A stretch of 64,000 nt of DNA from an uncultured Erysipelotrichaceae bacterium (GCA_900314865.1 OMWW01000002.1:66136-130135); one strand, 5' to 3'. Counted from the first letter of the stretch, positions 23,290-64,000 are shown. Notes: generated by a model not told the origin, from the letters alone. A program made the numbers and translations.

Positions 23290-23400
23290 AACTACATATC
23301 GGCAAACCCGGAGTAATCCGGCGACGCAAAGCTAAAGGGTCCAGTGAAAATTGGATAGCCAGTTGCACTTATAACAAAACCATTTTTGTGCACGTTTGCG
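23290..23400 (+). promoter_or_regulatory. c-di-GMP-I (GEMM) riboswitch with an expression platform.
   Basis: GGCAAACC is followed by a GNRA hairpin (CCGGAGUAAUCCGG), then GACGCAAAGC, then a UCCAGU-GAAA-AUUGGA hairpin. These are hallmark GEMM-I elements. A TATAAT at 23281 precedes it. A downstream hairpin with a U-run (CGUUUGCGGUUUUUUGU) lies before the GGDEF start. Confidence 0.7.
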
Positions 23401-23432
23401 GTTTTTTGTCGGTATTAATTACCGATTTTTTT

Positions 23433-24980: not shown

Positions 24981-24995
24981 TACTTCCTTTTATTT

Positions 24996-25026
24996 TAAAA
25001 GTCGCCCTTTCGGACGACTTATTTTA
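24996..25026. terminator. Intrinsic terminator between the convergent GGDEF genes.
   Basis: AAAAGTCGCCCTTTCGGACGACTTATTTT, a member of the recurring hairpin family. Confidence 0.6.
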
Positions 25027-39824: not shown

Positions 39825-39836
39825 AGTATCTGCTCC

Positions 39837-41015
39837 TTAAAAGTAAGTTACTTTGACGTTTTTACCCATCAATTTTAGCTTTTTAGCTAATTTGTCAATT
39901 AAATGCATTTTGGTCGTAAAGTTGATGCCGGTATCTTCTCCTTGATGAGCGTTGTTAATCGCGCAGCCTACAAAGAAATTAATATCGGTAGCTTGTTCAA
40001 ATAAACATTTAGCAATTTGACTCGCTCCATCGATCTTATAAAACCAGGTGACGAACAAGTCGTTTTGTTTTAAATAGTTATCAGCATATTCTAAAACTTT
40101 ATTAATCGTAATGATCCCTTCGGTAACTAAATCAACTCCTTCGATTGAAGCAGTTGGAGGTACTTCTTTATCTAAATATTCAGTTTGTAAAACCAAAGGT
40201 TGATTTAAATATCTAGAAACGAGATTACCAGTTGTTCCTCCTGAGACGATATGAATACCTTCTTTAGCAAAAAATAATGAAAGTATTTCTTCATCATCCT
40301 CTTTGTTAGTTGGAGGACCAATTAATAAATTAACTTGTTGTCTTTCTCTGATTCTTACCACTGCGACAGTGGTGTCATCACCTGGTCGGCCATTATATAG
40401 TTCATTACATTGACTTGCTAATAGAGTGGCTAACGCCTTAGAAGAATAGTCATTTCTATAGAAAATAGACATAAACTCTTTAATCTGAGGCATATCCCAT
40501 CCAAAATTCAATGTTTCACCCACTCCTGCATATTTAACACCATCGCTCATTAAGATAAATGTGTCATATAATGAGGCTTCAATTTTCGCATGATAAATAG
40601 TCTTACCATCGATAACCATTGATGAATAAGATAAATCCATTACTTTGCCATTGCGAATCATAAATGGTTCGGGATTATCAAAGTTATAAATATCAACATA
40701 TTTGTTGTCTTGAATTTTGATGATAGTGAAAGTTGAATAAGCAACTTTTCTCACTTTACATACTGGCAATGTATTAGCGATACATCTAATGCATTCCTTG
40801 ATGGAAATATCTCCTGCAATCATTGAGGAAAGCATCTTGCTAGTGAGAGTGGATAAAATATTGGCTTTCACTCCACTACCAAGACCATCCGCCAAAACCA
40901 AAATCTTTGTTGATTCATCTTTAGAAGTGACTTCTACATGGTCACCACAAAGCTCTTCACCAAAATGATTAAAGGAAAGATATCCAATTTCCGTCATGTA
41001 ACGATTATTTATCAT
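39837..41015 (-). CDS. PP2C-type (SpoIIE/RsbU-like) serine phosphatase.
   Basis: LADGLGSG and MSDGV metal-binding motifs. It sits between hydS and hydA, as in group C sensory hydrogenase loci. Confidence 0.65.
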   Translation of the reverse strand: MINNRYMTEIGYLSFNHFGEELCGDHVEVTSKDESTKILVLADGLGSGVKANILSTLTSKMLSSMIAGDISIKECIRCIANTLPVCKVRKVAYSTFTIIKIQDNKYVDIYNFDNPEPFMIRNGKVMDLSYSSMVIDGKTIYHAKIEASLYDTFILMSDGVKYAGVGETLNFGWDMPQIKEFMSIFYRNDYSSKALATLLASQCNELYNGRPGDDTTVAVVRIRERQQVNLLIGPPTNKEDDEEILSLFFAKEGIHIVSGGTTGNLVSRYLNQPLVLQTEYLDKEVPPTASIEGVDLVTEGIITINKVLEYADNYLKQNDLFVTWFYKIDGASQIAKCLFEQATDINFFVGCAINNAHQGEDTGINFTTKMHLIDKLAKKLKLMGKNVKVTYF

Positions 41016-42684
41016 CTTTAATTGTGTCCTTTAATGAAGTTAAGGCGACCTTTGTCTCCGCGGTAGTCTCACCTAAAAGTGAAGCGATTTCTTGTACCGC
41101 TCTCATATTCTTTTCGACAACTTTATCGGTGATTTCGAGAGATTTTCTCACAACCTCTTCATGTTTTTGTCTACTGAGTTCTTCGTTAGTAATGTCTTTC
41201 ATAATTGAAAGAAGAACATGGAATTTTTCATCATAGACAATCGTATTTTCAATGTATTTGTTATATTCACTTAAATATGATTTGCGGCGGAAAACCATCT
41301 CCCCACCTAAGGCGTTACAGAAAACGGTAGGATCTAAAATTGAGGAAACGTTTTTATGAATAACAATACTTGGCTTTTCAATATTGATGATACGGCACAT
41401 CGTTTTGTTTAATGATTGAATATTGAGTGATTCATCGAGCACTAAAATGCCATTTGGTGAATTGCTGACTATGTTATCAGAGAACGATTCTGCTTTTTCC
41501 ATCAAATAGGGAAGGCACATTTCTAAAGCGGCCTTGCCTTGAATGATGGCAATAGCTTTTTCTCGACATGTATCATATCCACAAGAACCACAGTTAAGAA
41601 TCTTTGATTTTTCGGTCTTACCCATCTCGATGAGTTTGGCTTCGATTTCTTCTTCACTTGGTGTGGCTTCTTTAGCACCGATTGAATAATAGTTTTTAGA
41701 AATATCTTTGTAACCAATCTTACCTTCAGTGAAATCTAGATCACCTGCACTCTTATTGATATCAATGTAGCTAGCGATAACGCTCTTTTCTTTATTGGAA
41801 ACTGGGCCATTGATGCAGCTACCTTCACAGCTGGACATTTCGATGAAACATTTATGAATCTTACCAGCTAAGATATCTTCAATGACTCGACGTGAATTCT
41901 CAACTCCATCGACTGCTAAATATTGATAATCTTTGTTGGAGCATTCCATCGTACGAAGAATGCCACCAGTGGTTGGGAATAGGCGGGCTTTACTTTCTTT
42001 CTTTTTCCAATCATATTTGACTTCCTTAAGGGTGATATTCTCACTCTTGAGCCAGTCTTCTAATTCTTTAAAAGTTAAGGCTACATCAATGATATCAAAA
42101 TTTAAATCTGCTTCATTCTTTTTAGCGATACATGGTCCAACAAAGACAACCTTTGCTTCTGGATCACGGCTTTTAATATCTTTTCCATGCGCGAGCATAG
42201 GCGAAAGAATATTTGCCAAATATTTTCGAGCTTCTGGATAATGCTTTTGAATTAGTAAATTGATTGAATGACAGCAAGAAGAGATGATAACGTCTCGATC
42301 CTTTTCTTGAAGCATTTCATCGTAGGCTTTTTTAACGATGGTCGCGCCAATCGCGGTTTCTTCAACTGCATAGAAGCCTAATTTCTTTAAAGCATTTACA
42401 ATCTCATCCATTGAAGTGTATGAGAAATAGCTGATGAAGCTTGGAGCTAAAGAAACATATACTTTCTTATTGTTCTTGAAAAGATTCTTAACAACATCAA
42501 CATCATTACGAATCACTTTAACTTCTTGAGGACACACTAAAAAGCAACGTCCACATAAAATACAACTATCTTGAATAATCTGAGCTTTATTTGAGGCGAA
42601 AGAAATCGATTTAATCGGGCAGTGACGAATGCATTTATAACAGTTCTTACAGTTTGTTGTTTTACTTTGTAAACAGTATTCCAT
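41005..42684 (-). CDS. hydS: Sensory [FeFe] hydrogenase HydS (group C) with a C-terminal PAS domain.
   Basis: N-terminal [4Fe-4S] motifs and degenerate H-cluster motifs (ISSCCHS, VGPCIAKK, EMSSCEGSCINGP), plus an extra CGSCGYDTC cluster and a PAS-like C-terminal ~120 aa. Confidence 0.75.
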   Translation of the reverse strand: MEYCLQSKTTNCKNCYKCIRHCPIKSISFASNKAQIIQDSCILCGRCFLVCPQEVKVIRNDVDVVKNLFKNNKKVYVSLAPSFISYFSYTSMDEIVNALKKLGFYAVEETAIGATIVKKAYDEMLQEKDRDVIISSCCHSINLLIQKHYPEARKYLANILSPMLAHGKDIKSRDPEAKVVFVGPCIAKKNEADLNFDIIDVALTFKELEDWLKSENITLKEVKYDWKKKESKARLFPTTGGILRTMECSNKDYQYLAVDGVENSRRVIEDILAGKIHKCFIEMSSCEGSCINGPVSNKEKSVIASYIDINKSAGDLDFTEGKIGYKDISKNYYSIGAKEATPSEEEIEAKLIEMGKTEKSKILNCGSCGYDTCREKAIAIIQGKAALEMCLPYLMEKAESFSDNIVSNSPNGILVLDESLNIQSLNKTMCRIINIEKPSIVIHKNVSSILDPTVFCNALGGEMVFRRKSYLSEYNKYIENTIVYDEKFHVLLSIMKDITNEELSRQKHEEVVRKSLEITDKVVEKNMRAVQEIASLLGETTAETKVALTSLKDTIKDDK

Positions 42685-46310: not shown

Positions 46311-48122
46311 GGGGCTGTTAAGAAACCTAAAAGGTGATTAAGCCCCTTTTAGTTTGCGCTTAAGACTTAACAGATAAACTGTTAAGAAACCTTTTTCTTC
46401 TTTCGGTGTTCTAATCTCAGCGACTCATTAATATCTTTTTTGCGTATCTTTTTCTTGAAAGTTTTTGCGTCAACAATTGGCAGTTCCTCATCTTTTAAAT
46501 CAGATGGAGCGATCCAATATTCAAATTTTGCTTTTCCATCATAGAACGTGAATAATTTTCTAAGGAGATGACCGATTAGAATTAGACAAATTTCAACATG
46601 CACCTTGTCTAATCCTCTTCTTCTGAAACGATCATATTGCATATCTTGTTTAACTATACCAAATACACCTTCGACCTGAGAGCTTCTATTAACTCTCATC
46701 TCTATTCCTTTGGCGGTTAATAGGTTTTCTCTTGCGACCGTTTTTCCTTTCCAAAATTCATATGAAACATCAAAACACCTAAATATCGCTTTTTTATCTT
46801 TAACGCCTTCTTTACAGACTTTTTGATATTTACACCTTTTACAATTTGCGATCACATATAAATATCCATGGCTCTTAGGATGGCGACCATTATACTCTGA
46901 ATATTTTGTAGCGGTTTTGCCGTTTAAACAAACAAGTTCCTCCTTATCATTAAATGAATATAAATCTATTGCGTTCCCTTTTCTTAATTGTTCCCAATCT
47001 TGAAATTTAACATAGTTGCCAATATTGTTTACAATCATGTAGACATAGTTTTTCCATGAACCATATCCTGCATCGGCACATAAGTTTTTGGGATAAAATC
47101 CATAATCTATATGAAATTGTTCAACAGTTGGTATAAAAGCGTAAAAATCTGTTCTTTCTTGCCCGACGTAATAAGTCAAAGCAATTCCTTTAGAAACAAT
47201 AATTTGTATATTGTATGCGGCATGCATATTGCTCCCTACTCCGGAATAAAAGTCTTCTTTTAATGTCATCGCGGTTGCATCCTTATCGGTTTTAAAATAG
47301 GAATTCCTATTTAGGCCACATATCTCTTCTTTTTCTTCATATTCAAGTAACTTAAGAAGATATTTTTCAAGTTGCTTATAATCCTTTTTGCCGTCTTTAT
47401 TTAAAGTGAAATCACCTAATTTTGTAATATATTCAGCAACTTCAATTGACTTCAAAAGTTCGATTTTGTTAATAGTGAAATACTTATTCAAAAGTGCTTT
47501 GATATTCTCATCTAACTTTTTATGAAATGTCGTGGGTTTCCAAACAAACTTATACTTATTTGCATTAGCCTCAATCTTGGTTCCATCAAGAAAACAATCA
47601 TCAACGTTTATTCCTGTTTCTTTAATGAATTGAGAGACTAAAAGCGAATATATTTTATGATGAAACTTAACAAATAAATTGTTAAGAAACTCTCCAATCT
47701 TTGCATATGAGGGATTTTCGTTATCCATTAAATACATAAATCTAACATCATATGTAAAACTATCTTCAATTTTCCTTAATGTTCCTGGATGTTTAGAAAA
47801 AGCATATATGGAAGCAGCAAATAAATTGTAATAGTTATATGGAGGTCTTCCTCCTTTGGAATAATCTTTATAACATTCTCGATGTATCAATTCTCCAACT
47901 CCAGAATTTTCAAGAAAAACTAAAAACTTATTCAATTTTTCTTCTTCCTTCTTGTTAAGTTGGTAGGAAGAAAACAAAAAAATTGTTTTATGGTAAAATA
48001 AGGCATATCAATACCTCCCTCGACAAGAGATATTGTAACAAAAGAGGCGATTTCTTACGATTTCACCTCTTTTTTGTAAACTAAAAGGGGCCTAGTCACC
48101 TTTTAGGTTTCTTAACAGCCCC
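46311..48122 (-). mobile_element. IS1182-family insertion sequence, 1812 bp.
   Basis: Perfect 26-bp terminal inverted repeats, GGGGCTGTTAAGAAACCTAAAAGGTG at 46311-46336 and its reverse complement at 48097-48122, flank a single transposase ORF. No obvious target-site duplication. Confidence 0.75.
46382..47977 (-). CDS. DDE transposase, IS1182 family (IS5 superfamily).
   Basis: N-terminal GGRPPYNYYNLF matches the IS1182 GRPxY motif. 531 aa with a C-terminal basic tail. Confidence 0.7.
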   Translation of the reverse strand: MFSSYQLNKKEEEKLNKFLVFLENSGVGELIHRECYKDYSKGGRPPYNYYNLFAASIYAFSKHPGTLRKIEDSFTYDVRFMYLMDNENPSYAKIGEFLNNLFVKFHHKIYSLLVSQFIKETGINVDDCFLDGTKIEANANKYKFVWKPTTFHKKLDENIKALLNKYFTINKIELLKSIEVAEYITKLGDFTLNKDGKKDYKQLEKYLLKLLEYEEKEEICGLNRNSYFKTDKDATAMTLKEDFYSGVGSNMHAAYNIQIIVSKGIALTYYVGQERTDFYAFIPTVEQFHIDYGFYPKNLCADAGYGSWKNYVYMIVNNIGNYVKFQDWEQLRKGNAIDLYSFNDKEELVCLNGKTATKYSEYNGRHPKSHGYLYVIANCKRCKYQKVCKEGVKDKKAIFRCFDVSYEFWKGKTVARENLLTAKGIEMRVNRSSQVEGVFGIVKQDMQYDRFRRRGLDKVHVEICLILIGHLLRKLFTFYDGKAKFEYWIAPSDLKDEELPIVDAKTFKKKIRKKDINESLRLEHRKKKKVS

Positions 48123-54698: not shown

Positions 54699-55262
54699 TT
54701 ACTTCATTAATTTTTTGCCATCAGAAAAGGCTTGTCCAACTTTCTCTTTGACAACATAATAACCGTGATTGAATGGATCATACGCAATGATGTTAAGTTT
54801 TGAAACATCAACCTTACCATTCTCATCCAAATATTTTTCATCAACAGTTAAACGAATGATATCGGCGATAACACCATAATCTTCTGGATTAATTTCACTA
54901 GCGCGACATTCCATACAAATAGCAAAGTCATCTAAAATAGGAGCGTCAATAATATCAGATTTATGAGCTTTTAAGCCTGTTCTTTCAAACTTGTCTTTAA
55001 CTTTGTTCCCAGAGACCATACCAACATAATCAGCCTCTTTGATGTGAGAGGCATCCGCAACTGTAACAGTGAAGCATCCTGTTCTTCTAATGTTTTTTGT
55101 TGTTTTATGTTCTTCAGAGATATTCAACTTTAATTGTTTATAGTCATAAGCACAGCCCCACGCTGCATTCATAACATCAATTGAACCATCCTCGTTATAT
55201 GTCGCAATAAGAATTACTGGCATTGGAAACAAGCCAGGAACGATAGGTAATTCTTTTCTCAT
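54699..55262 (-). CDS. Flavin reductase-like FMN-binding split-barrel protein.
   Basis: PMPVILIATYNEDGSIDVMNAAW matches the Flavin_Reduct family pattern. Confidence 0.65.
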   Translation of the reverse strand: MRKELPIVPGLFPMPVILIATYNEDGSIDVMNAAWGCAYDYKQLKLNISEEHKTTKNIRRTGCFTVTVADASHIKEADYVGMVSGNKVKDKFERTGLKAHKSDIIDAPILDDFAICMECRASEINPEDYGVIADIIRLTVDEKYLDENGKVDVSKLNIIAYDPFNHGYYVVKEKVGQAFSDGKKLMK

Positions 55263-56419
55263 AATAAGTTCTCCTTCTTTAAAAAAACTAAAAGTAAGTC
55301 ACAAAATTTCTTTATATTTTCTCTATTAGTAGCAATGTTCAAACGAATAAAACTAGAGTAATGTTCATGGTATATTTTACCACTACAAACAAGTATTCTT
55401 CCCTTCTTCAAAAGCAAGTTAGTGAATGCCTCTGAATCATGGGAATATTGCGAGATATCTATCCATAATAAATACGTAGCAGAACTATCAATAATTTTCA
55501 TTTTTATGCCATTTTTGACGAAAAAATCATTCAAAAACGCTTTGTTTTCACTTATATAGTTGTTTAATTCATTCACATATTCTTCGCACTTATTGTAGGC
55601 CGCTATTACTGGTCTAATTGAGAAGAAAGTTGGTTCACCTACATCGTCTTCCTCAAGACCTTTTTTTATCATATTTCTAAGTGATTCATTTGGTATAACA
55701 ACAACCGAAGAATGTAGGCCGGCAAGATTAAATGTTTTCCCAGGAGAAAGCATTACTATGAGCTTATCAAAATTGGAGGTTTTTAAAACCGGTACATACC
55801 TATGTTTGTTATAGTCAAGATCAGAATGAATTTCATCACTTATAAAGTAGACGTCGTATTTTTTACATAATCCAACAAGACGAATAATTTCTTCTTCACT
55901 AAATTGTTTTCCGATTGGATTATGAGGATTGCAGAAAATAAAAATCTTTGATTTTGAAATTATCTCTTCTGTTATTTTCCAATCGATTGAGTACTTATAA
56001 TCTTTATAGATAAAAGGAATCTCTAAAATCTTTCTATGATTATTGATAATGCAGTTATAGAACACATTATAGTTAGGCGAGAATAAAGAGATTGAATCGT
56101 TAATATTGCTCACTCTTTTTATTGCTGAATCAATAGATGCTACTATCGAAGTAGAAAACATAAACCATTCAAGTTTAAGTTCGGTGTTATATCTATGCTT
56201 CCACCAGTAAATATAAGCTTCATAATATTCATCAGAAACAAAAGTATAGCCATATGTAGGAATATCAGCCTGCTCTTTAATTGCTTCTTTAATTTCATTA
56301 GCGACATCAAAATCCATATCAGCAATTGAATATGAATATTCATCATCTTTGATATTCCATTTATAAGAATTGATGTGTCGTCTATTTATGAATTTGTCGA
56401 AGTTATATTTATTTCCCAT
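55259..56419 (-). CDS. PLP-dependent class I/II aminotransferase / C-S lyase (MalY/PatB-like).
   Basis: 386 aa starting MGNKYNFDKFINRRHINSYKWNI..., the typical PatB-type N-terminus. Confidence 0.7.
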   Translation of the reverse strand: MGNKYNFDKFINRRHINSYKWNIKDDEYSYSIADMDFDVANEIKEAIKEQADIPTYGYTFVSDEYYEAYIYWWKHRYNTELKLEWFMFSTSIVASIDSAIKRVSNINDSISLFSPNYNVFYNCIINNHRKILEIPFIYKDYKYSIDWKITEEIISKSKIFIFCNPHNPIGKQFSEEEIIRLVGLCKKYDVYFISDEIHSDLDYNKHRYVPVLKTSNFDKLIVMLSPGKTFNLAGLHSSVVVIPNESLRNMIKKGLEEDDVGEPTFFSIRPVIAAYNKCEEYVNELNNYISENKAFLNDFFVKNGIKMKIIDSSATYLLWIDISQYSHDSEAFTNLLLKKGRILVCSGKIYHEHYSSFIRLNIATNRENIKKFCDLLLVFLKKENLL

Positions 56420-57254
56420 AAATTTCTATTGTGATTAGGTTTCTATTTACGAATTCATCATCAAGGATTAATTCTTTAACACCTTTGACTCTAATCTTTC
56501 CTGAAGTTGGGTTCTTAATAGAATCAACAACATTAATAATGTCTGCATCTATATCTTTACAGAACTCAAAACACAAATCAGTATCAATTAGTTCACAGTT
56601 TACTAATTTAACGTTTTCCATATAGCAAAGACCTTGATGAGAAGTGATTTTACAGTTGATAAATGTTACATTCTTACTGTTCCACGCTAAATACTCACCT
56701 TTAATGGTAGAGTTAATGATTGTGACGTTTTCAGAGTTCCAAAAGCTATCTTTGCTGTTTAGAACTGAATCATGGATAATGATATTTTTACCACCATCAA
56801 AGCAATAATTACCATCTAAGTGTAATCCACTTATTTCAATATCTTCAGAATTAAGTCCAAAGTAATCCCCTTTAGCGTTAACCCCTTTAATATTTATCTT
56901 TTTACATTTCCAGAACGTTTCTGAGGCATTAGGAAGATTAACGTTCACTATTTTGATATTGCTGCTACGTCTAAATGTTTTAGGAGCGTCAATTAAAGAA
57001 TCAATTATTTCAATATTATTTGTATACCAAATTCCACTTCTAGCGGTTTCTAAAAAATGAGATTGAATAACCTTAACATCATTGCAATACCATAAAGGAT
57101 ATTTCCACCTAAATTCTGAGAAAGTGATAAGCAGTTTGCTACTTTCCTTTAAAGGAGATTCACCATCTTCAAAAACACAATGATCAAATTGTTTATCATT
57201 GCTATGAAAACAAGCACGTTCTCCAGTAAAAATACGATTATTAAAATAATTCAT
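56409..57254 (-). CDS. Right-handed beta-helix repeat protein (DUF3737-like).
   Basis: Repetitive N.N..I.NS.I / VNC beta-helix rungs. 281 aa. Confidence 0.45.
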   Translation of the reverse strand: MNYFNNRIFTGERACFHSNDKQFDHCVFEDGESPLKESSKLLITFSEFRWKYPLWYCNDVKVIQSHFLETARSGIWYTNNIEIIDSLIDAPKTFRRSSNIKIVNVNLPNASETFWKCKKINIKGVNAKGDYFGLNSEDIEISGLHLDGNYCFDGGKNIIIHDSVLNSKDSFWNSENVTIINSTIKGEYLAWNSKNVTFINCKITSHQGLCYMENVKLVNCELIDTDLCFEFCKDIDADIINVVDSIKNPTSGKIRVKGVKELILDDEFVNRNLITIEIYGK

Positions 57255-57315
57255 GATAATGATATTATCATTATTTATTTATGGTATCAAGAAAAGTAAA
57301 AGAAAATCCTTATTT

Positions 57316-58770
57316 CTAAGGATTAACTTCTTTATTGATTGGATTTCTTCTAACCTTTGTCCATTTTGGTTTGGAGAATACTCCAATAGTAATGGTAATA
57401 ACATAGATGATTGAGAAGAATGGAAATAAGATAACTCCACTAATGAGATCACGTTTACGTTTAGCGCCCATCTTCTTATAGTCACTAAATACCATAAGTA
57501 CGCCTTGAAGAATGCCACAGAAGGCGAATAGAACGCCAATACAGAATAGGATAACGTAAGCGTATGTTACGCACCATTGATTAGGTGTATAGACAGGGAA
57601 CATGCCTGCAATCGGTTCGTATCCTTTTCCAGCCGCTAAGTTACCAGCAATAATTTCTGCTGGTCCCATATGTCCCATGAAGTGATAAATATAGGCGTAA
57701 ATATAATAACCTGGTAACCATAAGCAAAGGATTGGACAAATAGGAATAAACAAATAATTTAAGAAAGCTTCAATATAAGAAGGATTATGGTTTTTAATTG
57801 AATAGAAGAACATTTTAGGAGCGTATCTTCCAAGCATTCTAACATTACCAGCACCAAGTCTTTTATTTCTTGCAAGGGTGTCTTTCATAGTGGATGGAAG
57901 GTCTTCATAAACTACAGCGTCTTCAACGAAATGTGGTTTAATTTTTTCAAACATTCTCTTGAAGTTAAATTCTGTATCTTCACACATTGTAACGGTGTCG
58001 TAGCCACCAATACGGCGTATAATATCCATCTCAATTAAACTTCCTGGGCCATTAACGTGAGCGTCAATATGTAATCTTTCTCTAACACGTGATCCACATC
58101 TACTATCAAAGATGTAGTATAAGCCACAAGCTTTAGTGTAAGCGCTTTGAGTCATGTTAAGAGCACTTTCATAAGGACGGGCAATTTTCGCTCCATTATT
58201 ATAAGCATCATTCATTAAAGAGAAGAATTCAGGATTAATGTGATTATCCGCGTCTAATCTAATAATAAAGTCATAATATTTATTACATTTAACTGTTTCT
58301 GGTTTTTGACCTTTCTTTACCCTCTTCCAAGGTCTAAGAATATATTCGCCAGGTGCACCTTTTTCAGAATCAATTTTCAATAATTCCTTAAATCCATATT
58401 CAAGCGCAAAACCCACCATATGGTGTCTTGGGTCTGGATCGGTGTGGACAAATACTGTCGCACCAGCTTTCTTTGCTAATTCTTCAGTTTTATCATTACA
58501 GTTATCAGCGATAACATAGACATCAAACATATCGCGTGGATATTTTTGATTCTCGATGACATCTTTAACTGTGTCATAAATGACATCTTCTTCATTATGA
58601 GCTGGGATAACTAAGGCAATGCGATTAATCTTTTCTGTTTTCTTAAATTTCTTTTTTGGAAGCCAGAATAAAAGCATGTAAATCATTTGCAAAGCAAATG
58701 GAATACCAATGAAAATCAATATACCAACATTAATTTGAGTTAAATAATAATATACCCAATCGTACCACAT
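57316..58770 (-). CDS. Membrane-embedded family 2 glycosyltransferase (processive/synthase-type).
   Basis: N-terminal TM helices, VIPAHNEEDVI, RLDADN (DxD) and a C-terminal TM bundle. Confidence 0.7.
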   Translation of the reverse strand: MWYDWVYYYLTQINVGILIFIGIPFALQMIYMLLFWLPKKKFKKTEKINRIALVIPAHNEEDVIYDTVKDVIENQKYPRDMFDVYVIADNCNDKTEELAKKAGATVFVHTDPDPRHHMVGFALEYGFKELLKIDSEKGAPGEYILRPWKRVKKGQKPETVKCNKYYDFIIRLDADNHINPEFFSLMNDAYNNGAKIARPYESALNMTQSAYTKACGLYYIFDSRCGSRVRERLHIDAHVNGPGSLIEMDIIRRIGGYDTVTMCEDTEFNFKRMFEKIKPHFVEDAVVYEDLPSTMKDTLARNKRLGAGNVRMLGRYAPKMFFYSIKNHNPSYIEAFLNYLFIPICPILCLWLPGYYIYAYIYHFMGHMGPAEIIAGNLAAGKGYEPIAGMFPVYTPNQWCVTYAYVILFCIGVLFAFCGILQGVLMVFSDYKKMGAKRKRDLISGVILFPFFSIIYVITITIGVFSKPKWTKVRRNPINKEVNP

Positions 58771-58808: not shown

Positions 58809-59477
58809 TTAAGATATAGTCATGGAAATCTTTTTATCTAAATAATCCGCTAAATCATCAACACCAATGTCTTTAAGCGCGCTAACCCGAAATACTTTTG
58901 CATTCGGATTTCTTTTAAGAATATACTCTTTACATTTATCAAAATCAAAATCAAAAACAGGAAGAGTGTCGATTTTTGTTATTACCGCAATCTCGCTTAC
59001 CTCAAACATAAGTGGATATTTGAGTGGTTTGTCTTCCCCTTCTGGAACCGATAAAAGCATCATATTTAAGTTACTGCCAGTATCAAATTCTGCCGGACAA
59101 ACTAAGTTTCCGATATTCTCCAAAATCACCACATCTAAATCGGTTAAATCAAAGGACTTAAAAGCATCGTTTACCATCTGAGCAGTTAAGTGACACGCTC
59201 CGGAAGTATGAACTTGAATTGAGCGGGTTTCTGTCGTGTTAACGATTGTTTTTGCGTCTTCTTCTCCATCAATATCAGCCTCTAAAACACCAATACGATA
59301 TTTCTTCTTAAGACGATTGATAAGGTTAACTAAAAGAGTAGTCTTTCCTGCTCCTGGAGAAGCCATAACATTAATAAAATAAATATTCTTGGATTTTAAA
59401 AAATCTCGAACATCTTGAGCTTTCTTGTTATTTTCAACCAAAATATCTTCTTTAACTTTGACAACACGATAGTCCAT
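58809..59477 (-). CDS. hypB: Hydrogenase/urease nickel-incorporation GTPase HypB (G3E family), paralog 1.
   Basis: SPGAGKTT Walker A, SGACH metal-site motif and ENIGNLVCPAEFDTG. Confidence 0.8.
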   Translation of the reverse strand: MDYRVVKVKEDILVENNKKAQDVRDFLKSKNIYFINVMASPGAGKTTLLVNLINRLKKKYRIGVLEADIDGEEDAKTIVNTTETRSIQVHTSGACHLTAQMVNDAFKSFDLTDLDVVILENIGNLVCPAEFDTGSNLNMMLLSVPEGEDKPLKYPLMFEVSEIAVITKIDTLPVFDFDFDKCKEYILKRNPNAKVFRVSALKDIGVDDLADYLDKKISMTIS

Positions 59478-59579
59478 AGTCGTAAATATTGTAACATATC
59501 ATCGAGTATAATAAACCTAGAGTAAAATAAAAGTTCACAAAATTTCCATATTAGAATAATATAGAAATACAGATATTTT

Positions 59580-60254
59580 ATGGGTGAAGTCAAAATAATC
59601 GCTGTAAATCGTTCCGCTTACGCTGATAATGATCTCGAAGCAGAAGCTTTAAGAGGTTATTTAAAAGACAAAGGGACTTTTTTAGTGAATGTAATGTCTT
59701 CTCCAGGTGCGGGAAAGACCACCACTCTTACAAAATTAATAAATTTATTAAAAAATGAATTAAGGATTGGAGTGATGGAAGCAGATATAGATAGTGATGT
59801 TGATGCGTTGTCTATCGCTAAGAATACCGGAGTTAGATCAATTCAGATTCATACCTCTGGAATGTGCCATCTCGATGCCGGAATGACTAAGTCGGGATTA
59901 GATGAAATTGATATAAGCGATTTAGACCTCGTCTTCCTAGAAAACGTTGGTAATCTAGTCTGTCCTGCTGAATTTGATACAGGAGCGTCTATGGATATGG
60001 TAATCCTATCAATTCCAGAAGGAGACGATAAGCCGTTAAAGTATCCACTCATCTTTGAAAAGTGCGACCTCGTACTAATCAACAAAATTGATACAATTGA
60101 TTACTTCGATTTCAACTTTGAAAGATGTGAAAAAGATATTAGGTGGAGAAATAAAAACGCCACCATTATTAAAATAAGTGCGAAAACAGGTGAAGGCATT
60201 GAGGATGTCAAAACCTATTTCATAAATAAAATTCAAAACTGGAGGAAAGAATAA
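59580..60254 (+). CDS. hypB: HypB GTPase, paralog 2. It is the first gene of the hypB-X-hypA operon.
   Basis: SPGAGKTT, SGMCH, ENVGNLVCPAEFDTG. About half of its residues are identical to the divergently transcribed paralog. Confidence 0.8.
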   Translation: MGEVKIIAVNRSAYADNDLEAEALRGYLKDKGTFLVNVMSSPGAGKTTTLTKLINLLKNELRIGVMEADIDSDVDALSIAKNTGVRSIQIHTSGMCHLDAGMTKSGLDEIDISDLDLVFLENVGNLVCPAEFDTGASMDMVILSIPEGDDKPLKYPLIFEKCDLVLINKIDTIDYFDFNFERCEKDIRWRNKNATIIKISAKTGEGIEDVKTYFINKIQNWRKE

Positions 60255-60255
60255 T

Positions 60256-63150
60256 ATGCCAGAGAAAAACACAAAGATTGTCTCAAAGTACGAAGGAGAA
60301 AAAGGCTACAGTTATGAGCAAAAACTCATCAAGCTTTGTAGAAAAATCACAGACGTTGTTCCACATAAGTTAATAGGAATGACAACAGAAGATCCAGAAT
60401 ACTGGGGATTAAGAGAAGTCTTAACTGAACCGATGATTGACGTTCTTTTAAAGATGAAACAAAGAAAACACTATCTCTTTGAAGATTTAGTGAAAATAAA
60501 CAAAGAGCTCAATCCTGCCGAACTACAAAAATTACTCGATGAAATGTCAGTTATCGGTATTATTGAATACGATTATGGTGATAACTATGCTTGGGATCAT
60601 CCTCTTGAGGACAAACCAAAAGTGAAGAGATATATGCTCTCTTACTTTGTTCCAGGAAGTGCAGAGCTTATGAACTCCTCGGTTGATCGTATTGCAAAGA
60701 ATCCTGCGGTTGCCTCTTTCTTTGAAAGAATGACATTTATTCCTCTAGCAGGTGTTACAGAAATGCTTCCTCCTGGAGGTGGCGGTGTTGGTATGCACGT
60801 CATTCCTGTAGAAAAAGCTATTGAAAGCGAACAAACATCCATCGATGTCGAGCATATCTCCCACTGGATGAAAAAATATGAAGGTCATATCTCTGCTGGT
60901 ATTTGTTCTTGTAGAGCAAGTAGAACAATGTTAGGAGATGGCTGTATCGACGATGTCGATGATTGGTGTATCCAATTCGGTGATATGGCAGACTACACAG
61001 TCGAAACTGGTAGAGCCCACTACATCACTAAAGAAAGAGCGTTAGAAATTTTTGAATTATCTGAAAAGAACGGCTTTGTTCACCAAATCACCAATATCGA
61101 TGGTGAAAACAAAATCTTTGATATTTGTAACTGTGACGTCAAGATTTGTAACGCCTTAAGAACAGCATTATTATTCAACACTCCATATCTAGAAAGAAGT
61201 GCGTATACTGCAAAAGTTAATCCAACCAACTGTGTTGCGTGTGGTCAATGTGTTACAAATTGTCCTGCAGGCGCTGTTAAACTTGGTCAAAAACTTTGTA
61301 AGAAAGATGGAAGTGAACAAAAATATCCTGAAGCACCACTCCCAGACAAAATTAAATGGGGCAAATATGCTTGGGACGAAAATTATAGAGACACAATGAG
61401 AAAACACGATACCTACGAAACAGGTACCGCTCCTTGTAAAGTTGCTTGTCCAGCTCACGTACCAGTTCAAGGCTATCTTAAGATGGCAAATGAAGGAAGA
61501 TACAGAGAAGCTCTTGCATTAATCAAAACACAAAATCCATTCCCTGCTGTTTGTGGTCGTGTTTGTAACAAGAAATGTGAAGAAGCATGTACTAGAGGTG
61601 ATGTTGATCGCCCAGTCTCTATTGACGCAGTTAAAAAATTCCTCGCTGATTTAGAAAGAAATTCTAAAGATAGATATATTCCAGAAAAGATCGTTGCATC
61701 AGTGCATGGAAAATTTGATGAAAAGATCGCTATTATCGGTGCTGGTCCAGCTGGTTTAAGTGCAGCCTATTACTTATGTGAAATGGGCTTCAAACCTACC
61801 GTCTTTGAAAAAGAAAAAAAACCAGGCGGTATGATGATGTATGGAATTCCAAGTTATAAACTTGAAAAAGATGTTATTGAATCGGAAATCGATATTATTA
61901 GAGCTTTAGGCGCAGAAATCAAATGTGGCGTTGAAGTTGGTAAGGATGTCACTATTGAAGAACTCAAAAAACAAGGATATAAAGCTTTCTATGTTGCTAT
62001 TGGCTGCCAAGGCGGAAAACGCCCGGGCGTTCCAAATGACAACGCTAAAGGAACAGACATCGCTGTAAATTACTTAAAGAGTGTCTTTGATAAGAAAGAA
62101 GACTTCAAAGGTGATGTTGTCGTCGTTGGTGGCGGTAACGTTGCTATTGACTGTGTGAGAACCGCTCATAGATTAAAGGCTAAATCCGTCTCTATGTTCT
62201 GTTTAGAAGATAAAGACCATATGCCTGCTACAAACGAAGAAGTAAAAGAAGCTCTTGAAGAAGATATCACCATTAATAATGGTTGGGGTCCAAAAGAAGT
62301 TAAGGTTAACGACAAAGGTGAAGTTACTGGTATCGTCTTTAAAAAATGTGTTTCCGTCTTTGATGAAGCTGGAAAATTCAATCCTAAATATGATGAAAAC
62401 GAAGTCTTAGAAGTCAAAGCTGATAAGATTATCTTCGCTATCGGACAAGATATCGTTTGGGGTGACTTACTTAAAGGTAGTAAAGTTACTTTCTGGCATG
62501 GAAATTATCCACTTGCGGATAAAGTCACATATCAAACCGCTGATGAAGATATCTTCGTTGGTGGCGACGTCTTCACTGGTCCTAAGTTCGTTATTAATGC
62601 GATTGCAGCAGGACATGAAGTTGCTGACGCCTTAGCAAGACACGTTAGACCAAACGCTCACCCAACTATCGCCTTTAACCATCGTGGATTTACACCTCTT
62701 AACAAGGAAGATATCACACTTCCTGGTTATGATGACGCAGGTAGACAAGAAGAAAAGATGGATGAATCCATTGACCATAAGAATTCATTTAAGGACGCTC
62801 ACGGAACATTAACTGAAGAACAAGTTAAGATTGAAACTGGACGTTGCTTAAGTTGTGGTGCTGCTCACGTTGATCCTCATAAGTGTATCGGCTGTGGTAT
62901 TTGTACAACAAAGTGTCATTTCGACGCCATCCACTTAGTAAGAGATCATCCAGAATGTTCTAAGATGAGAAGAGCAGAAAAGAAAGTCTCTGGCTTACTT
63001 GGTTACGCTCTTAAACGTGAATTCAAGATTCTCTTCCATTCTTGTAGTAAAGAAGCACGCGTAATGAGAAAGAAACGTAAAGCGTGGAATAAATACTACA
63101 AAGAAGCAAAGAAAACCGCTCCAAATACAGGAAACGCAGTCGATGCATGA
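60256..63150 (+). CDS. Large YgfK-like flavo-iron-sulfur oxidoreductase with a GltD-like FAD/NAD(P) domain, [4Fe-4S] clusters and an N-terminal domain of unknown function.
   Basis: GltD N-terminal signature (CPAHVPVQGYLKMANEGRYREALALIKTQNPFPAVCGRVCNKKCEEACTR). FAD motif IAIIGAGPAGL and second Rossmann motif VVVGGGNVAIDC. Ferredoxin motifs CVACGQCVTNCP and CLSCG...CIGCGICTTKC. The start is 2 nt after the hypB stop and the end overlaps hypA by 8 nt. Confidence 0.6.
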   Translation: MPEKNTKIVSKYEGEKGYSYEQKLIKLCRKITDVVPHKLIGMTTEDPEYWGLREVLTEPMIDVLLKMKQRKHYLFEDLVKINKELNPAELQKLLDEMSVIGIIEYDYGDNYAWDHPLEDKPKVKRYMLSYFVPGSAELMNSSVDRIAKNPAVASFFERMTFIPLAGVTEMLPPGGGGVGMHVIPVEKAIESEQTSIDVEHISHWMKKYEGHISAGICSCRASRTMLGDGCIDDVDDWCIQFGDMADYTVETGRAHYITKERALEIFELSEKNGFVHQITNIDGENKIFDICNCDVKICNALRTALLFNTPYLERSAYTAKVNPTNCVACGQCVTNCPAGAVKLGQKLCKKDGSEQKYPEAPLPDKIKWGKYAWDENYRDTMRKHDTYETGTAPCKVACPAHVPVQGYLKMANEGRYREALALIKTQNPFPAVCGRVCNKKCEEACTRGDVDRPVSIDAVKKFLADLERNSKDRYIPEKIVASVHGKFDEKIAIIGAGPAGLSAAYYLCEMGFKPTVFEKEKKPGGMMMYGIPSYKLEKDVIESEIDIIRALGAEIKCGVEVGKDVTIEELKKQGYKAFYVAIGCQGGKRPGVPNDNAKGTDIAVNYLKSVFDKKEDFKGDVVVVGGGNVAIDCVRTAHRLKAKSVSMFCLEDKDHMPATNEEVKEALEEDITINNGWGPKEVKVNDKGEVTGIVFKKCVSVFDEAGKFNPKYDENEVLEVKADKIIFAIGQDIVWGDLLKGSKVTFWHGNYPLADKVTYQTADEDIFVGGDVFTGPKFVINAIAAGHEVADALARHVRPNAHPTIAFNHRGFTPLNKEDITLPGYDDAGRQEEKMDESIDHKNSFKDAHGTLTEEQVKIETGRCLSCGAAHVDPHKCIGCGICTTKCHFDAIHLVRDHPECSKMRRAEKKVSGLLGYALKREFKILFHSCSKEARVMRKKRKAWNKYYKEAKKTAPNTGNAVDA

Positions 63151-63487
63151 GTTAGGGATTGTCGTTCACGTAATTAAACAAATCGAAGATTTAGCAGCTA
63201 AGCAACAAGTTAAAGAAGTTGTTGAACTCACCTTAGAAGTTGGAGAAGTTTCTGGAGTAGTTAAAGAATATTTCTACGACGCCTTTGAATGGGCGAAGAA
63301 ACGTACTGAATATATGAAGAATTGTAAACTCAATCTCATCATTATTCAGGGAATCACTTATTGTGAGAGCTGCGGAAAAACTTATTCCACAACTGAGTAT
63401 GGGAAAGAATGTCCATATTGTCATTCGACAAAAACCTATTTAGTTACTGGAAAAGACGTGATGATTAAAAACGTCAAAGTAATATAA
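63143..63487 (+). CDS. hypA: Hydrogenase nickel-incorporation protein HypA.
   Basis: MHELGIV... (N-terminal MHE Ni-binding motif) and a C-terminal zinc site CESCG...CPYCHS. 114 aa. Confidence 0.85.
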   Translation: MHELGIVVHVIKQIEDLAAKQQVKEVVELTLEVGEVSGVVKEYFYDAFEWAKKRTEYMKNCKLNLIIIQGITYCESCGKTYSTTEYGKECPYCHSTKTYLVTGKDVMIKNVKVI

Positions 63488-63502
63488 AAAATAAGGAACC
63501 GA

Positions 63503-64000
63503 TTATTTTTTATTCGGTTCCTTTTCATCATATTCATCTAAGAAAGAATGAAGCTCTCCATATTTTCGATATCCTAAAATCATATCAAGGGTCACATTAC
63601 TTGCAGATTTAAAGATGTTTTGTTCTACTTGTGGGATTTCTTTTTTAAGTGATTTAATAAGGTTCTTTGTGTATAAACGCATACTTTTTGATTCATCTTC
63701 ACTTGCGGCTTCAGAGAATTTACAAGCACATTGGATGAATTCTAAGTTATGGTGTTTACTCCAGGCGATGATATCTTTTTCTCTTACAAAATACATAGGT
63801 CTAATAAGTTCCATCCCTTCAAAGTTGGTGCTATGGAGTTTTGGTAACATTGTTTGGAAAGAACCACTGTTGAGCATGTTCATTAAGGTTGTTTCAATAA
63901 CGTCGTCATAATGATGACCTAACGCTATTTTGTTACATCCTAATTGTTTGGCAGCGGTATATAAGGCACCTCTTCGCATTCTTGCGCACATGAAACATGG
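63503..64000 (-). CDS. ttcA: TtcA-family PP-loop ATPase (tRNA 2-thiocytidine synthase-like). The 5' end lies outside the window.
   Basis: ...PCFMCARMRRGALY...GHHYDDVIETTLMNMLNSGSFQTMLP matches TtcA conserved blocks. The ORF is open to the window edge. Confidence 0.65.
   Translation of the reverse strand, partial: PCFMCARMRRGALYTAAKQLGCNKIALGHHYDDVIETTLMNMLNSGSFQTMLPKLHSTNFEGMELIRPMYFVREKDIIAWSKHHNLEFIQCACKFSEAASEDESKSMRLYTKNLIKSLKKEIPQVEQNIFKSASNVTLDMILGYRKYGELHSFLDEYDEKEPNKK

What the first reader, a model, noticed from the sequence alone, without database searches (positions are those of the whole stretch)
58809..63487. HypB / YgfK-like 964-aa flavo-FeS oxidoreductase / HypA operon with a divergent second HypB, and no [NiFe] hydrogenase genes in view
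hypB (59580..60254), the large ORF (60256..63150) and hypA (63143..63487) are separated by 2 nt and an 8-nt overlap, implying translational coupling. HypA and HypB are nickel chaperones; HypA here has the MHE Ni-binding N-terminus and HypB the C-H metal motif. The protein sandwiched between them is not a hydrogenase large subunit. It has a GltD-like NAD(P)H/FAD module, ferredoxin-type clusters and a ~300-aa N-terminal domain with CSCRASR...C...C, overall resembling the YgfK family. The only hydrogenases in the window are [FeFe] enzymes, which do not need Hyp proteins. This could be a nickel- or metal-dependent oxidoreductase system of unknown function, or Ni chaperones serving an enzyme encoded elsewhere. 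A second, ~55%-identical HypB paralog is transcribed divergently from a shared 102-bp promoter region.
Basis: partly seen in the sequence, partly recalled or inferred. Interest (0 to 1): 0.6.

Follow-up and report, generated by a model that had tools for sequence, protein, structure and literature searches.

The report
IsrA-like reductase with dedicated nickel chaperones
This is a real hypB–oxidoreductase–hypA operon, and its large protein belongs to the IsrA ("putative isoprene reductase") family described in 2023; that family is almost always flanked by nickel-chaperone genes and is suspected, but not yet shown, to be a new kind of nickel enzyme.

Summary
X (964 aa) is not a YgfK, GltD or NfnB orthologue. 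Those relatives match only residues ~385–870. X aligns end to end (44% identity) with IsrA of Acetobacterium wieringae, which I recovered and verified by its published contig coordinates and five-gene operon.

X shares the family's hallmark. Its ~310-aa N-terminal domain has no Pfam or PDB match. That domain carries six invariant cysteines in two CxC motifs 74 residues apart, plus an invariant histidine. Four canonical [4Fe-4S] motif sets and an FAD/NAD(P) module follow.

In 80 species genomes from five phyla, hypA lies directly downstream in 70 of 72 testable loci, and hypB directly upstream in 55 of 77. No other gene family recurs widely. The hyp genes therefore most likely mature X itself.

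Kronen et al. (2023) already reported this linkage and the nickel hypothesis. No biochemistry exists yet. X lacks the features of the isoprene-reducing subclade, so its substrate is unknown.

Verdict: a new member of a described but uncharacterised family.

The parts
58809..59477 (-). hypB' : second, divergently transcribed HypB paralogue (222 aa). It is type 1: no N-terminal CxxCGC motif and no His-rich stretch. The P-loop, CH motif, NIGNLVCP and TKID motifs are intact.
   Evidence: TIGR00073 220.5 bits vs cutoff 121.2. 50% identical to hypB. The same divergent copy is present in relatives L001-L003 and L006.
59478..59579 (.). 102-bp divergent intergenic (promoter) region. It contains a 12-nt inverted repeat, ATTTCCATATTA-gaa-TAATATAGAAAT, at 59542-59568, just upstream of hypB.
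   Evidence: Sequence. Inverted repeat. A weak sigma-70-like match lies at 59534-59562, but such matches are no more frequent here than in shuffled sequence. The repeat is not conserved in L001.
59580..60254 (+). hypB (224 aa), a type-1 HypB GTPase and the first gene of the operon.
   Evidence: TIGR00073 221.1 bits vs cutoff 121.2. It has the G.CH and NVGNLVCP metal motifs. A HypB lies directly upstream of X homologues in 55/77 species loci.
60256..63150 (+). X: IsrA-like ('clade 9') flavo-iron-sulfur oxidoreductase, 964 aa.
   Evidence: 44% identity over 883 aa with verified IsrA, P0433. Relatives at 75-97% identity in Erysipelotrichaceae/Bacilli MAGs carry only generic names.
60373..60585 (+). 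X residues ~40-110: winged-helix-like sub-domain.
60796..61170 (+). X residues 181-305: Cys-rich sub-domain. C217, C219, R220, C238, H276, C291, N292, C293, C298 and R302 are invariant. This is the 'Cys6' site (cluster V of Kronen et al.), the candidate Ni or Ni-Fe-S site.
61210..61290 (+). X residues 319-345: first ferredoxin-type CxxCxxCxxxC motif (C326, C329, C332, C336).
   Evidence: PF12837/PF00037 hits. The four Cys are invariant.
61426..61665 (+). X residues 391-470: DPD-domain-II-type 2x[4Fe-4S] region (C394, C398, C433, C437, C441, C445).
   Evidence: PF14691, 76.2 bits. The six Cys are invariant.
61723..62646 (+). X residues 490-797: FAD/NAD(P)-binding module of GltD/NfnB type.
   Evidence: PF07992, 85.2 bits. 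PDB relatives 9bov, 9n5u, 5jca, 4ylf, 2vdc and 1gt8 align only to residues ~385-870.
62845..62946 (+). X residues 864-897: C-terminal Cys motifs (C864, C867; C877, C880, C883, C887), which complete the four canonical clusters.
   Evidence: Fer4 hits. The Cys are 99-100% conserved.
63143..63487 (+). hypA (114 aa), overlapping X by 8 nt. It has the MHE Ni-binding N-terminus and a CxxC-x12-CxxC zinc site.
   Evidence: PF01155, 100.1 bits. hypA lies directly downstream of X homologues in 70/72 species loci, median gap 31.5 nt. 75/75 linked HypAs have the Zn motif and 62/75 start with MHE.
63493..63523 (.). Hairpin terminator shared with the convergent ttcA-like gene (63503-63991, minus strand). 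It marks the end of the operon.
   Evidence: RNA fold -15.7 kcal/mol, z = -5.2, 0 of 200 shuffles fold as well. Sequence.

Best explanation
The locus is a three-gene operon, hypB - isrA-like oxidoreductase - hypA, plus a divergent second hypB. It encodes a member of the IsrA-like ('clade 9') family together with its own dedicated HypA/HypB metallochaperones.

Shown here:
- X is a full-length homologue of IsrA.
- It has motif sets for four canonical [4Fe-4S] clusters and an FAD/NAD(P) module.
- It has a family-specific N-terminal domain with six invariant Cys, in two CxC motifs, and one invariant His.
- hypA and hypB flank this gene across phyla, and nothing else recurs widely.

Inferred:
- HypB (GTPase) and HypA load Ni(II) into the Cys6/His site of X.
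- This yields a Ni or Ni-Fe-S centre that is the substrate-reducing site.
- Electrons flow from NAD(P)H to FAD, along the four [4Fe-4S] clusters, to that site.

The substrate in this Erysipelotrichaceae-like organism is unknown. By analogy with IsrA it may be an unactivated or conjugated C=C bond. It is probably not isoprene, because X lacks the features of the isoprene subclade.

My confidence by step:
- family membership: ~0.97
- hyp genes serve X: ~0.85
- the metal is Ni and sits in the Cys6 site: ~0.5
- C=C reduction: ~0.3
For: Membership. P0433 was verified as IsrA. Its gene starts at record position 69,745 of the 90,374-bp contig CABIIK010000043.1, as published, and is followed by HypA-HypB-ferredoxin-HypA (PMC10134865). 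X aligns to it over residues 47-898, with 44% identity and E = 0. The CxC motifs are 74 residues apart in both proteins.

Conservation. In 84 family members, six N-domain Cys plus H276, R220, N292 and R302 are 100% conserved, as are 16 further Cys, enough for four [4Fe-4S] clusters.

Linkage. hypA is adjacent in 70/72 loci. hypB is adjacent in 55/77, and some hypB lies within 10 kb in 62/77, using one genome per species across Bacillota, Bacteroidota, Spirochaetota, Actinomycetota and Fibrobacterota. X, HypA and HypB are the only families that recur widely.

Coupling. The 1-nt gap and the 8-nt overlap suggest translational coupling.

Chaperones look functional. The Ni and Zn motifs of HypA and the CH...C metal motif of HypB are conserved in the linked copies.

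Independent literature. A neighbourhood network of 988 homologues gave HypA 0.73 and HypB 0.56. A. wieringae lacks [NiFe] hydrogenase and hypCDEF. IsrA, HypA and HypB are induced together by isoprene. hypA and hypB rise 373- and 585-fold under isoprene in a Pelotomaculum enrichment (preprint).
Against: No member of the family has been purified. Nickel content, cofactors, electron donor and substrate are all untested.

About 20% of loci show no hypB within 10 kb.

HypA scores below the curated TIGR00100 cutoff, so it is a divergent HypA whose metal specificity is not established.

My full-length AF2 model has low confidence (pLDDT < 50) in all Fe-S-binding stretches. I therefore could not verify that the six Cys cluster together in this protein; that rests on the published IsrA model.

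The rest of this organism's genome is unseen. Another Ni enzyme elsewhere cannot be excluded.
Confidence: 0.6

Rival explanations
1. HypA and HypB deliver a metal other than nickel (Zn, Fe or Co). Alternatively they act as a GTP-dependent assembly factor for an unusual all-iron Fe-S cluster at the Cys6 site, such as a P-cluster-like or double-cubane cluster. X would then be a flavo-Fe-S reductase without nickel.
For: Kronen et al. note that the Cys6 site also resembles P-type and double-cubane [8Fe-9S] sites. The CobW/HypB/UreG superfamily includes Zn and Co chaperones (Pfam PF02492; weak ZigA and MeaB hits). HypA falls below the TIGR00100 cutoff.
Against: Both HypBs score as equivalog-level HypB: 220 bits against 121 for TIGR00073, versus only 48-50 bits for UreG. 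The linked HypAs keep the MHE Ni-binding N-terminus in 62/75 cases. All characterised HypA/HypB pairs handle Ni; this rests on established knowledge, reviewed in the paper read.
Confidence: 0.2
2. The hyp genes serve a nickel enzyme encoded elsewhere, such as a [NiFe] hydrogenase, urease or CODH. X would be an ordinary GltD/NfnB/YgfK-type oxidoreductase that merely happens to sit between them.
For: The rest of the genome is not visible. In Helicobacter, HypA and HypB also serve urease (established knowledge). Pelotomaculum species carry [NiFe] hydrogenases as well.
Against: The same gene sandwich recurs in 80 species from five phyla with different flanks. No Ni enzyme and no hypCDEF recur in the 10-kb flanks. 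X fails the curated cutoffs for YgfK, GltD and related models, and it has a unique N-terminal domain. A. wieringae has the operon but no [NiFe] hydrogenase or hypCDEF, and its other Ni enzymes have their own maturases.
Confidence: 0.07
3. X is itself an isoprene reductase, the functional orthologue of A. wieringae IsrA.
For: Full-length homology to IsrA with the same cofactor motifs. Isoprene is available in animal-associated habitats (general knowledge).
Against: Identity is only 44%, similar to the 47-49% Acetobacterium homologues from strains shown experimentally not to reduce isoprene. X lacks the ~26-residue insertion specific to the IsrA/Pelotomaculum subclade. The operon lacks the accessory ferredoxin and the second hypA of the isr operon.
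Confidence: 0.08
4. The N-terminal winged-helix plus Cys-rich domain makes X a redox- or metal-sensing DNA-binding regulator rather than a catalytic enzyme.
Confidence: 0.03

Closest known systems
IsrA, putative isoprene reductase of Acetobacterium wieringae ISORED-2 (VUZ27132.1), and its 'clade 9' homologues (Kronen et al. 2023, mSystems, PMC10134865)
   Same: End-to-end homology at 44% identity. Same domain order: N-terminal uncharacterised domain, Fer4, DPD-domain II, FAD/NAD(P), Fer4. Same Cys6 site with two CxC motifs 74 residues apart. Same adjacency to hypA and hypB. No hypCDEF or [NiFe] hydrogenase structural genes nearby.
   Different: Gene order is hypB-X-hypA plus a divergent second hypB, rather than isrA-hypA-hypB-fdx-hypA. 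There is no accessory ferredoxin and no second hypA. X lacks the ~26-residue insertion of the isoprene-reducing subclade. X has ~40 extra N-terminal residues and ~65 extra C-terminal residues. The host is an Erysipelotrichaceae-like gut or rumen bacterium rather than an acetogen. The substrate is unknown.
NfnB / GltD / dihydropyrimidine dehydrogenase N-terminal modules (PDB 5jca_L, 4ylf_B, 2vdc_G, 1gt8_A) and the FDH-fused GltD-like modules (9bov_A, 8oh5_C)
   Same: The NAD(P)H/FAD domain plus the two [4Fe-4S] clusters of DPD-domain-II type. These align to X residues ~385-870 (E from 1e-42 to 3e-90).
   Different: None has the N-terminal 380 residues (winged helix, Cys6 domain and extra ferredoxin motif). 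None is linked to hypA or hypB. X has no NfnA or GltB partner gene. All curated model cutoffs are missed.
YgfK (TIGR03315, putative selenate reductase subunit / uric-acid cluster protein of E. coli)
   Same: A large fusion protein (about 1000 aa) with a GltD-like core and a C-terminal ferredoxin motif.
   Different: The score is 266.5 bits against a cutoff of 835.3. Only model positions 438-888 align. The N-terminal ~430 positions of YgfK have no counterpart in X. The genomic context also differs: there are no ygf, xdh or ssnA neighbours.
Canonical HypA/HypB nickel delivery to [NiFe] hydrogenase, and to urease in Helicobacter
   Same: A type-1 HypB GTPase with the CH...C metal site. HypA with the MHE Ni site and a CxxC/CxxC Zn site.
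   Different: The presumed client is a flavo-Fe-S oxidoreductase, not a hydrogenase large subunit or urease. There is no HypC, HypD, HypE, HypF or endopeptidase. HypA is divergent (below the TIGR00100 cutoff). Two HypB paralogues are present here.
A-cluster of acetyl-CoA synthase (Ni-Ni-[4Fe-4S], with a Cys-Gly-Cys motif) and double-cubane or P-type clusters
   Same: CxC motifs and a six-cysteine environment. Kronen et al. note a conformational resemblance.
   Different: There is no sequence or fold homology. The resemblance is a hypothesis about metal-site chemistry only and was not tested here.

Membership tests
IsrA-like 'clade 9' oxidoreductases (Kronen et al. 2023) | Aligns over the whole ~900-aa length of IsrA (VUZ27132.1) | tested here: met
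   X residues 47-898 align to IsrA residues 24-878: 44% identity, 699 bits, E = 0. IsrA's identity was verified by contig coordinates and operon.
IsrA-like 'clade 9' oxidoreductases (Kronen et al. 2023) | N-terminal ~270-310 aa domain with no recognised domain | tested here: met
IsrA-like 'clade 9' oxidoreductases (Kronen et al. 2023) | Six-cysteine site with two CxC motifs (IsrA C180/C182 and C254/C256) | tested here: met
   X has C217/C219 and C291/C293 at the same 74-residue spacing, plus C238 and C298. All six are 100% conserved in 84 members. Their spatial clustering in X could not be checked.
IsrA-like 'clade 9' oxidoreductases (Kronen et al. 2023) | Four canonical [4Fe-4S] motif sets plus an FAD/NAD(P) module | tested here: met
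   PF14691, PF07992 and Fer4 hits. Sixteen further invariant Cys. This is sequence-level evidence only.
IsrA-like 'clade 9' oxidoreductases (Kronen et al. 2023) | Genomic adjacency to hypA and hypB | tested here: met
   In the window. Across the family, hypA in 70/72 loci and hypB in 55/77.
Isoprene-reducing IsrA subclade (cluster I: A. wieringae ISORED-2 / strain Y, Pelotomaculum) | About 77% or more identity to IsrA, the 26-residue insertion (IsrA 756-782), and the five-gene isr operon with ferredoxin and a second hypA | tested here: not met
   Identity is 44%. The alignment shows gaps in X where IsrA has the insertion. The operon has no ferredoxin gene and only one hypA.
Isoprene-reducing IsrA subclade | Isoprene to methylbutene reduction activity | not testable with these tools
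   Needs a cell or enzyme assay.
Nickel enzyme (any) | Nickel bound and required for activity | not testable with these tools
   Inferred only from the hypA/hypB linkage. No member of the family has been analysed for metals.
YgfK (TIGR03315) | Score at or above the curated cutoff (835.3 bits) over the full model | tested here: not met
   266.5 bits. Only model positions 438-888 are matched.
GltD / NADPH-glutamate synthase small subunit and NfnB | Curated model cutoffs, plus a partner subunit gene (gltB or nfnA) adjacent | tested here: not met
   TIGR01317 scores 201.5 bits against 447.7, TIGR01318 250.4 against 483, and TIGR01316 251.6 against 471.8. There is no partner gene in the operon.
HypB (TIGR00073) | Curated equivalog cutoff, GTPase motifs and the CH...C metal site | tested here: met
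   220.5 and 221.1 bits against 121.2. The motifs are present in both copies.
HypA (PF01155 / TIGR00100) | Model cutoffs, the MHE N-terminus and two CxxC motifs | tested here: inconclusive
   Pfam is passed (100.1 bits against 28.9) and the motifs are present. TIGR00100 is missed (75.5 bits against 88.1). This is a divergent HypA.
[NiFe]-hydrogenase maturation system | hypC, hypD, hypE, hypF, a large subunit and an endopeptidase encoded with hypA and hypB | tested here: not met
   None in the 64-kb window. None recurs in the 10-kb flanks of 80 related loci. The whole genome was not visible.

The most novel reading that the evidence does not exclude
IsrA-like proteins, including this one, would be a new class of nickel enzyme. 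A Ni or Ni-Fe-S centre sits in a six-cysteine/histidine site of a previously unseen fold. It is matured by HypA and HypB alone, without HypCDEF, and is fed by an in-built NAD(P)H-FAD-4x[4Fe-4S] wire. In gut and rumen anaerobes of at least five phyla it would hydrogenate unactivated C=C bonds of diet- or host-derived hydrocarbons such as terpenes, other isoprenoids or polyenes. The paired HypB paralogues here might form a heterodimeric Ni-loading GTPase.
Probability: 0.35. Interest if true: 0.8.

Novelty: new member of a known kind. Interest (0 to 1): 0.42.

Why it matters
Only a handful of nickel enzyme classes are known. This would be a further one, using a minimal HypA/HypB maturation pathway and carrying out chemically difficult reductions, so it would be significant for bioinorganic chemistry.

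The family is very common in gut and rumen anaerobes: at least 388 species genomes and 958 clusters at 50% identity. Its substrate could therefore matter for host-associated hydrocarbon or isoprenoid metabolism.

The idea and the hyp linkage were already published in 2023. This window therefore adds a further example in an Erysipelotrichaceae-like genome, with a variant operon that has two HypB paralogues and no ferredoxin. It also adds sharper statistics and a list of invariant residues. It does not add a new concept.

Tried and rejected
1. YgfK, GltD or NfnB membership. Rejected: all curated cutoffs are missed and only residues ~385-870 align.

3. Full-length AF2 model, intended to inspect the Cys6 geometry and the Fe-S chain. 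All Fe-S stretches have pLDDT below 50, because the alignment is shallow at the C-terminus, and no coordinates were accessible. It was not used for any geometric claim.

4. Looking for a conserved substrate-related neighbour. Beyond X, HypA and HypB, only clade-restricted DUF5692 (20 loci), GntR (12), an ABC ATPase (9) and MatE (8) recur. None is in this window.

5. Naming P0190 as an IsrA orthologue from its motif numbering. Its context is TetR-X-HypA, not the isr operon, so it was used only as a stepping stone to the real IsrA.

6. Supplementary files of the paper, searched for sequences. None was usable.

7. Literature search for biochemical follow-up or other characterised members. None was found in the held library.

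8. Promoter scan of the intergenic region. Matches are no more frequent than in shuffled sequence. The inverted repeat found there is not conserved in a relative at 83% identity.

Full report
**Observation**

- X and hypA overlap by 8 nt.
- hypB and X are separated by 1 nt, not 2, with a GGAGG ribosome-binding site 7 nt upstream of the X start.
- The divergent hypB'/hypB intergenic region is 102 bp.
- The operon ends in a strong hairpin at 63493-63523 (-15.7 kcal/mol, z = -5.2). A convergent ttcA-like PP-loop gene follows. Nothing beyond 63487 therefore belongs to the operon.

Both HypBs pass the curated HypB equivalog model (220.5 and 221.1 bits against 121.2). They are 50% identical. Both are "type 1" HypBs: the CH...C G-domain metal site is present, and there is no N-terminal CxxCGC or His-rich stretch.

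HypA passes Pfam PF01155 (100.1 bits against 28.9) and has the MHE N-terminus and CxxC-x12-CxxC. It misses the TIGR00100 cutoff (75.5 against 88.1), so it is a divergent HypA.

**What X is not**

Pfam and NCBIfam recognise only residues ~319-341 (Fer4), 391-470 (DPD-domain-II Fe-S), 490-797 (FAD/NAD(P)) and ~866-900 (Fer4).

The YgfK model TIGR03315 scores 266.5 bits against a cutoff of 835.3 and aligns only model positions 438-888. The GltD, NfnB-like, AegA and YgfT models all miss their cutoffs too.

All solved relatives align only to X residues ~385-870. These are FDH-fused GltD modules (9bov, 8oh5), NfnA (9n5u), NfnB (5jca, 4ylf, 5vj7), GltD (2vdc, 6s6s, 7mfm) and DPD (1gt8).

**What X is**

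An exhaustive HMMER search with the N-terminal 315 residues found 958 cluster representatives at 50% identity (95 with E at or below 1e-30). Many are ~880-945 aa long with the same architecture.

A literature search led to Kronen et al. 2023 (mSystems, PMC10134865). They describe IsrA, a 901-aa "putative isoprene reductase" of Acetobacterium wieringae ISORED-2, and its "clade 9" homologues. The published features are:

- an N-terminal ~270 aa with no predicted domain;
- two pairs of canonical [4Fe-4S] clusters;
- an FAD/NAD(P) site;
- a putative fifth cluster in a Cys6 environment with two CxC motifs (C180/C182 and C254/C256);
- co-occurrence, among 988 homologues, with HypA (0.73), HypB (0.56), DUF5692 (0.4) and TetR (0.21).

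I recovered the actual IsrA as P0433 and verified it. Its gene starts at position 69,745 of the 90,374-bp contig CABIIK010000043.1, exactly as published. It is followed by HypA-HypB-ferredoxin-HypA.

X aligns with it from residue 47 to 898, at 44% identity and E = 0. X's CxC motifs (C217/C219 and C291/C293) have the same 74-residue spacing. X is therefore a member of this family.

X is not in the isoprene-reducing subclade. It is as distant from IsrA as the 47-49% Acetobacterium homologues from strains that do not reduce isoprene. It lacks the ~26-residue insertion of that subclade. Its operon lacks the accessory ferredoxin and the second hypA.

**Conserved residues**

I aligned 84 full-length members that are 35-83% identical to X.

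- C217, C219, C238, C291, C293 and C298 are 100% conserved, as are H276, R220, N292 and R302.
- C230 is not invariant (87%).
- Sixteen further Cys are 99-100% conserved: 326/329/332/336, 877/880/883/887, 394/398/433/437/441/445 and 864/867. That is the number needed for four [4Fe-4S] clusters.

How these Cys pair up into clusters is my inference from motif patterns. My full-length AF2 model had pLDDT below 50 in all Fe-S stretches and no accessible coordinates. I make no geometric claim for X. The spatial clustering of the six Cys rests on the published IsrA model.

**Linkage**

A scan of one genome per species found at least 388 species that encode the N-terminal domain. I analysed the best 80 loci with 10-kb flanks. 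They come from Bacillota (Erysipelotrichaceae, Oscillospiraceae, Lachnospiraceae, Christensenellales), Bacteroidales, Spirochaetia, Atopobiaceae and Fibrobacterota (Hallerella). Most are from gut or rumen.

| Feature | Result |
|---|---|
| hypA directly downstream, same strand | 70 of 72 testable loci, median gap 31.5 nt |
| hypB directly upstream | 55 of 77 |
| some hypB within the locus | 62 of 77 |
| two or more hypB copies | 8 loci |

Clustering all ORFs from the loci shows that X (81 loci), HypA (75) and HypB (65) are the only real families that recur widely. The next ones are clade-restricted: DUF5692 (20, Bacteroidales), GntR (12), an ABC ATPase (9) and MatE (8). No hypCDEF, [NiFe] hydrogenase, CODH or urease recurs.

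Close relatives of the window, at 83% and 75% identity, keep the hypB'/hypB/X/hypA block in completely different flanks.

The window itself holds no other Ni enzyme and no Ni transporter. Its only hydrogenase-type genes are [FeFe]-type.

All of this agrees with the published neighbourhood network, and it tightens the numbers.

**Mechanism (inferred)**

HypB is a GTPase and HypA is the Ni-delivery protein. The most economical reading of the near-obligate linkage is that they insert Ni into X. The only conserved, unassigned ligand set in X is the Cys6/His276 site of the N-terminal domain.

Electrons would pass from NAD(P)H via FAD and the four [4Fe-4S] clusters to this site, where the substrate is reduced. 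In IsrA the proposed substrate is a conjugated C=C bond of isoprene. For this protein the substrate is unknown.

None of this has been tested biochemically for any member. The 2026 Pelotomaculum preprint still lists characterisation of isrA-like proteins as future work. I found no other follow-up.

**Rivals**

- The chaperones may deliver another metal or assemble an all-iron cluster (0.2).
- The chaperones may serve an enzyme elsewhere (0.07). The cross-phylum synteny argues against this.
- X may be a true isoprene reductase (0.08).
- X may be a winged-helix redox sensor (0.03).

**Verdict**

The "YgfK-like" label is wrong as a statement of family membership. The system is already described in the literature, including the hyp linkage and the Ni hypothesis.

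This is a new member of a known but biochemically uncharacterised kind, with a variant operon. The underlying open question, whether this is a new class of nickel enzyme, remains interesting and directly testable. This window does not raise it for the first time.

Noticed in passing
window 38394-42684 (- strand): Two [FeFe]-hydrogenase-type genes (476 aa and 559 aa, the latter with an extra PF04060 'putative Fe-S cluster' domain) flank a SpoIIE/PP2C phosphatase gene (39837-41015). The arrangement looks like a sensory hydrogenase-phosphatase regulatory module next to a catalytic hydrogenase.
   Followed up: partly
window 59542-59568: A 12-nt inverted repeat, ATTTCCATATTA-gaa-TAATATAGAAAT, ends 11 nt upstream of the hypB start and overlaps a weak -10-like element. 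It could be an operator. It is not conserved in the 83%-identity relative L001.
   Followed up: partly
L088 4001-5650 (also L089, L090); protein P0311: A 549-aa protein in which the IsrA-type N-terminal domain plus a partial Fer4_20 region is fused directly to a complete HypA domain (residues 430-542). The FAD/NAD(P) module is absent, and hypB lies upstream. It is seen on 16 contigs from several samples. It may be a recurrent in-frame deletion or a genuine N-domain-HypA fusion, and radical-SAM/HydF [FeFe]-hydrogenase maturation genes lie downstream.
   Followed up: partly
protein P0325: A 610-aa protein with a HypB/CobW domain (residues 36-196) fused in front of the IsrA-type N-terminal domain. 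It was seen on a single 3.2-kb contig. It could be a frameshift or read-through of the 1-nt hypB-X junction rather than a real fusion.
   Followed up: partly
L065 13206-14614 and 19 other Bacteroidales loci: A DUF5692 membrane protein (349 aa) lies downstream of hypA in 20 loci. It is often preceded by a ~110-aa ORF with no Pfam hit, which is present in 10 loci. It may be a transporter for the substrate or the metal. It is absent from this window.
   Followed up: partly
L052, L028, L044, L048, L064: Variant gene orders occur: hypB-hypA-X in L052, and X-hypA-hypB (or X-hypA-hypB-hypB) in the others. Tandem hypB-hypB pairs lie upstream of X in L029, L031, L035 and L040.
   Followed up: no
window 54699-58770 (- strand): Downstream of hypB', in the same orientation, are a GT2 glycosyltransferase (484 aa), a DUF3737 protein (377 bits), a class I/II aminotransferase and a flavin-reductase-like protein. 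hypB' may be co-transcribed with them. The neighbours are not conserved in relatives.
   Followed up: no
window 46382-47977 (- strand): A DDE transposase (DDE_Tnp_1_6/DDE_Tnp_1), probably an insertion sequence, lies next to several small ORFs with no Pfam hit and an HTH_3 regulator.
   Followed up: no
window 20117-23165 (+ strand): A protein made entirely of DUF6937 plus DUF6938 (478 aa, 368 and 284 bits) follows an MFS sugar transporter and a melibiase/GH31-like hydrolase, behind a TetR regulator. This looks like an uncharacterised glycoside-utilisation cluster.
   Followed up: no
window 23388-26700: Two convergent GGDEF diguanylate-cyclase genes, one with dCache and HAMP sensor domains. A GdpP-type c-di-AMP phosphodiesterase lies at 11138-13198.
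   Followed up: no
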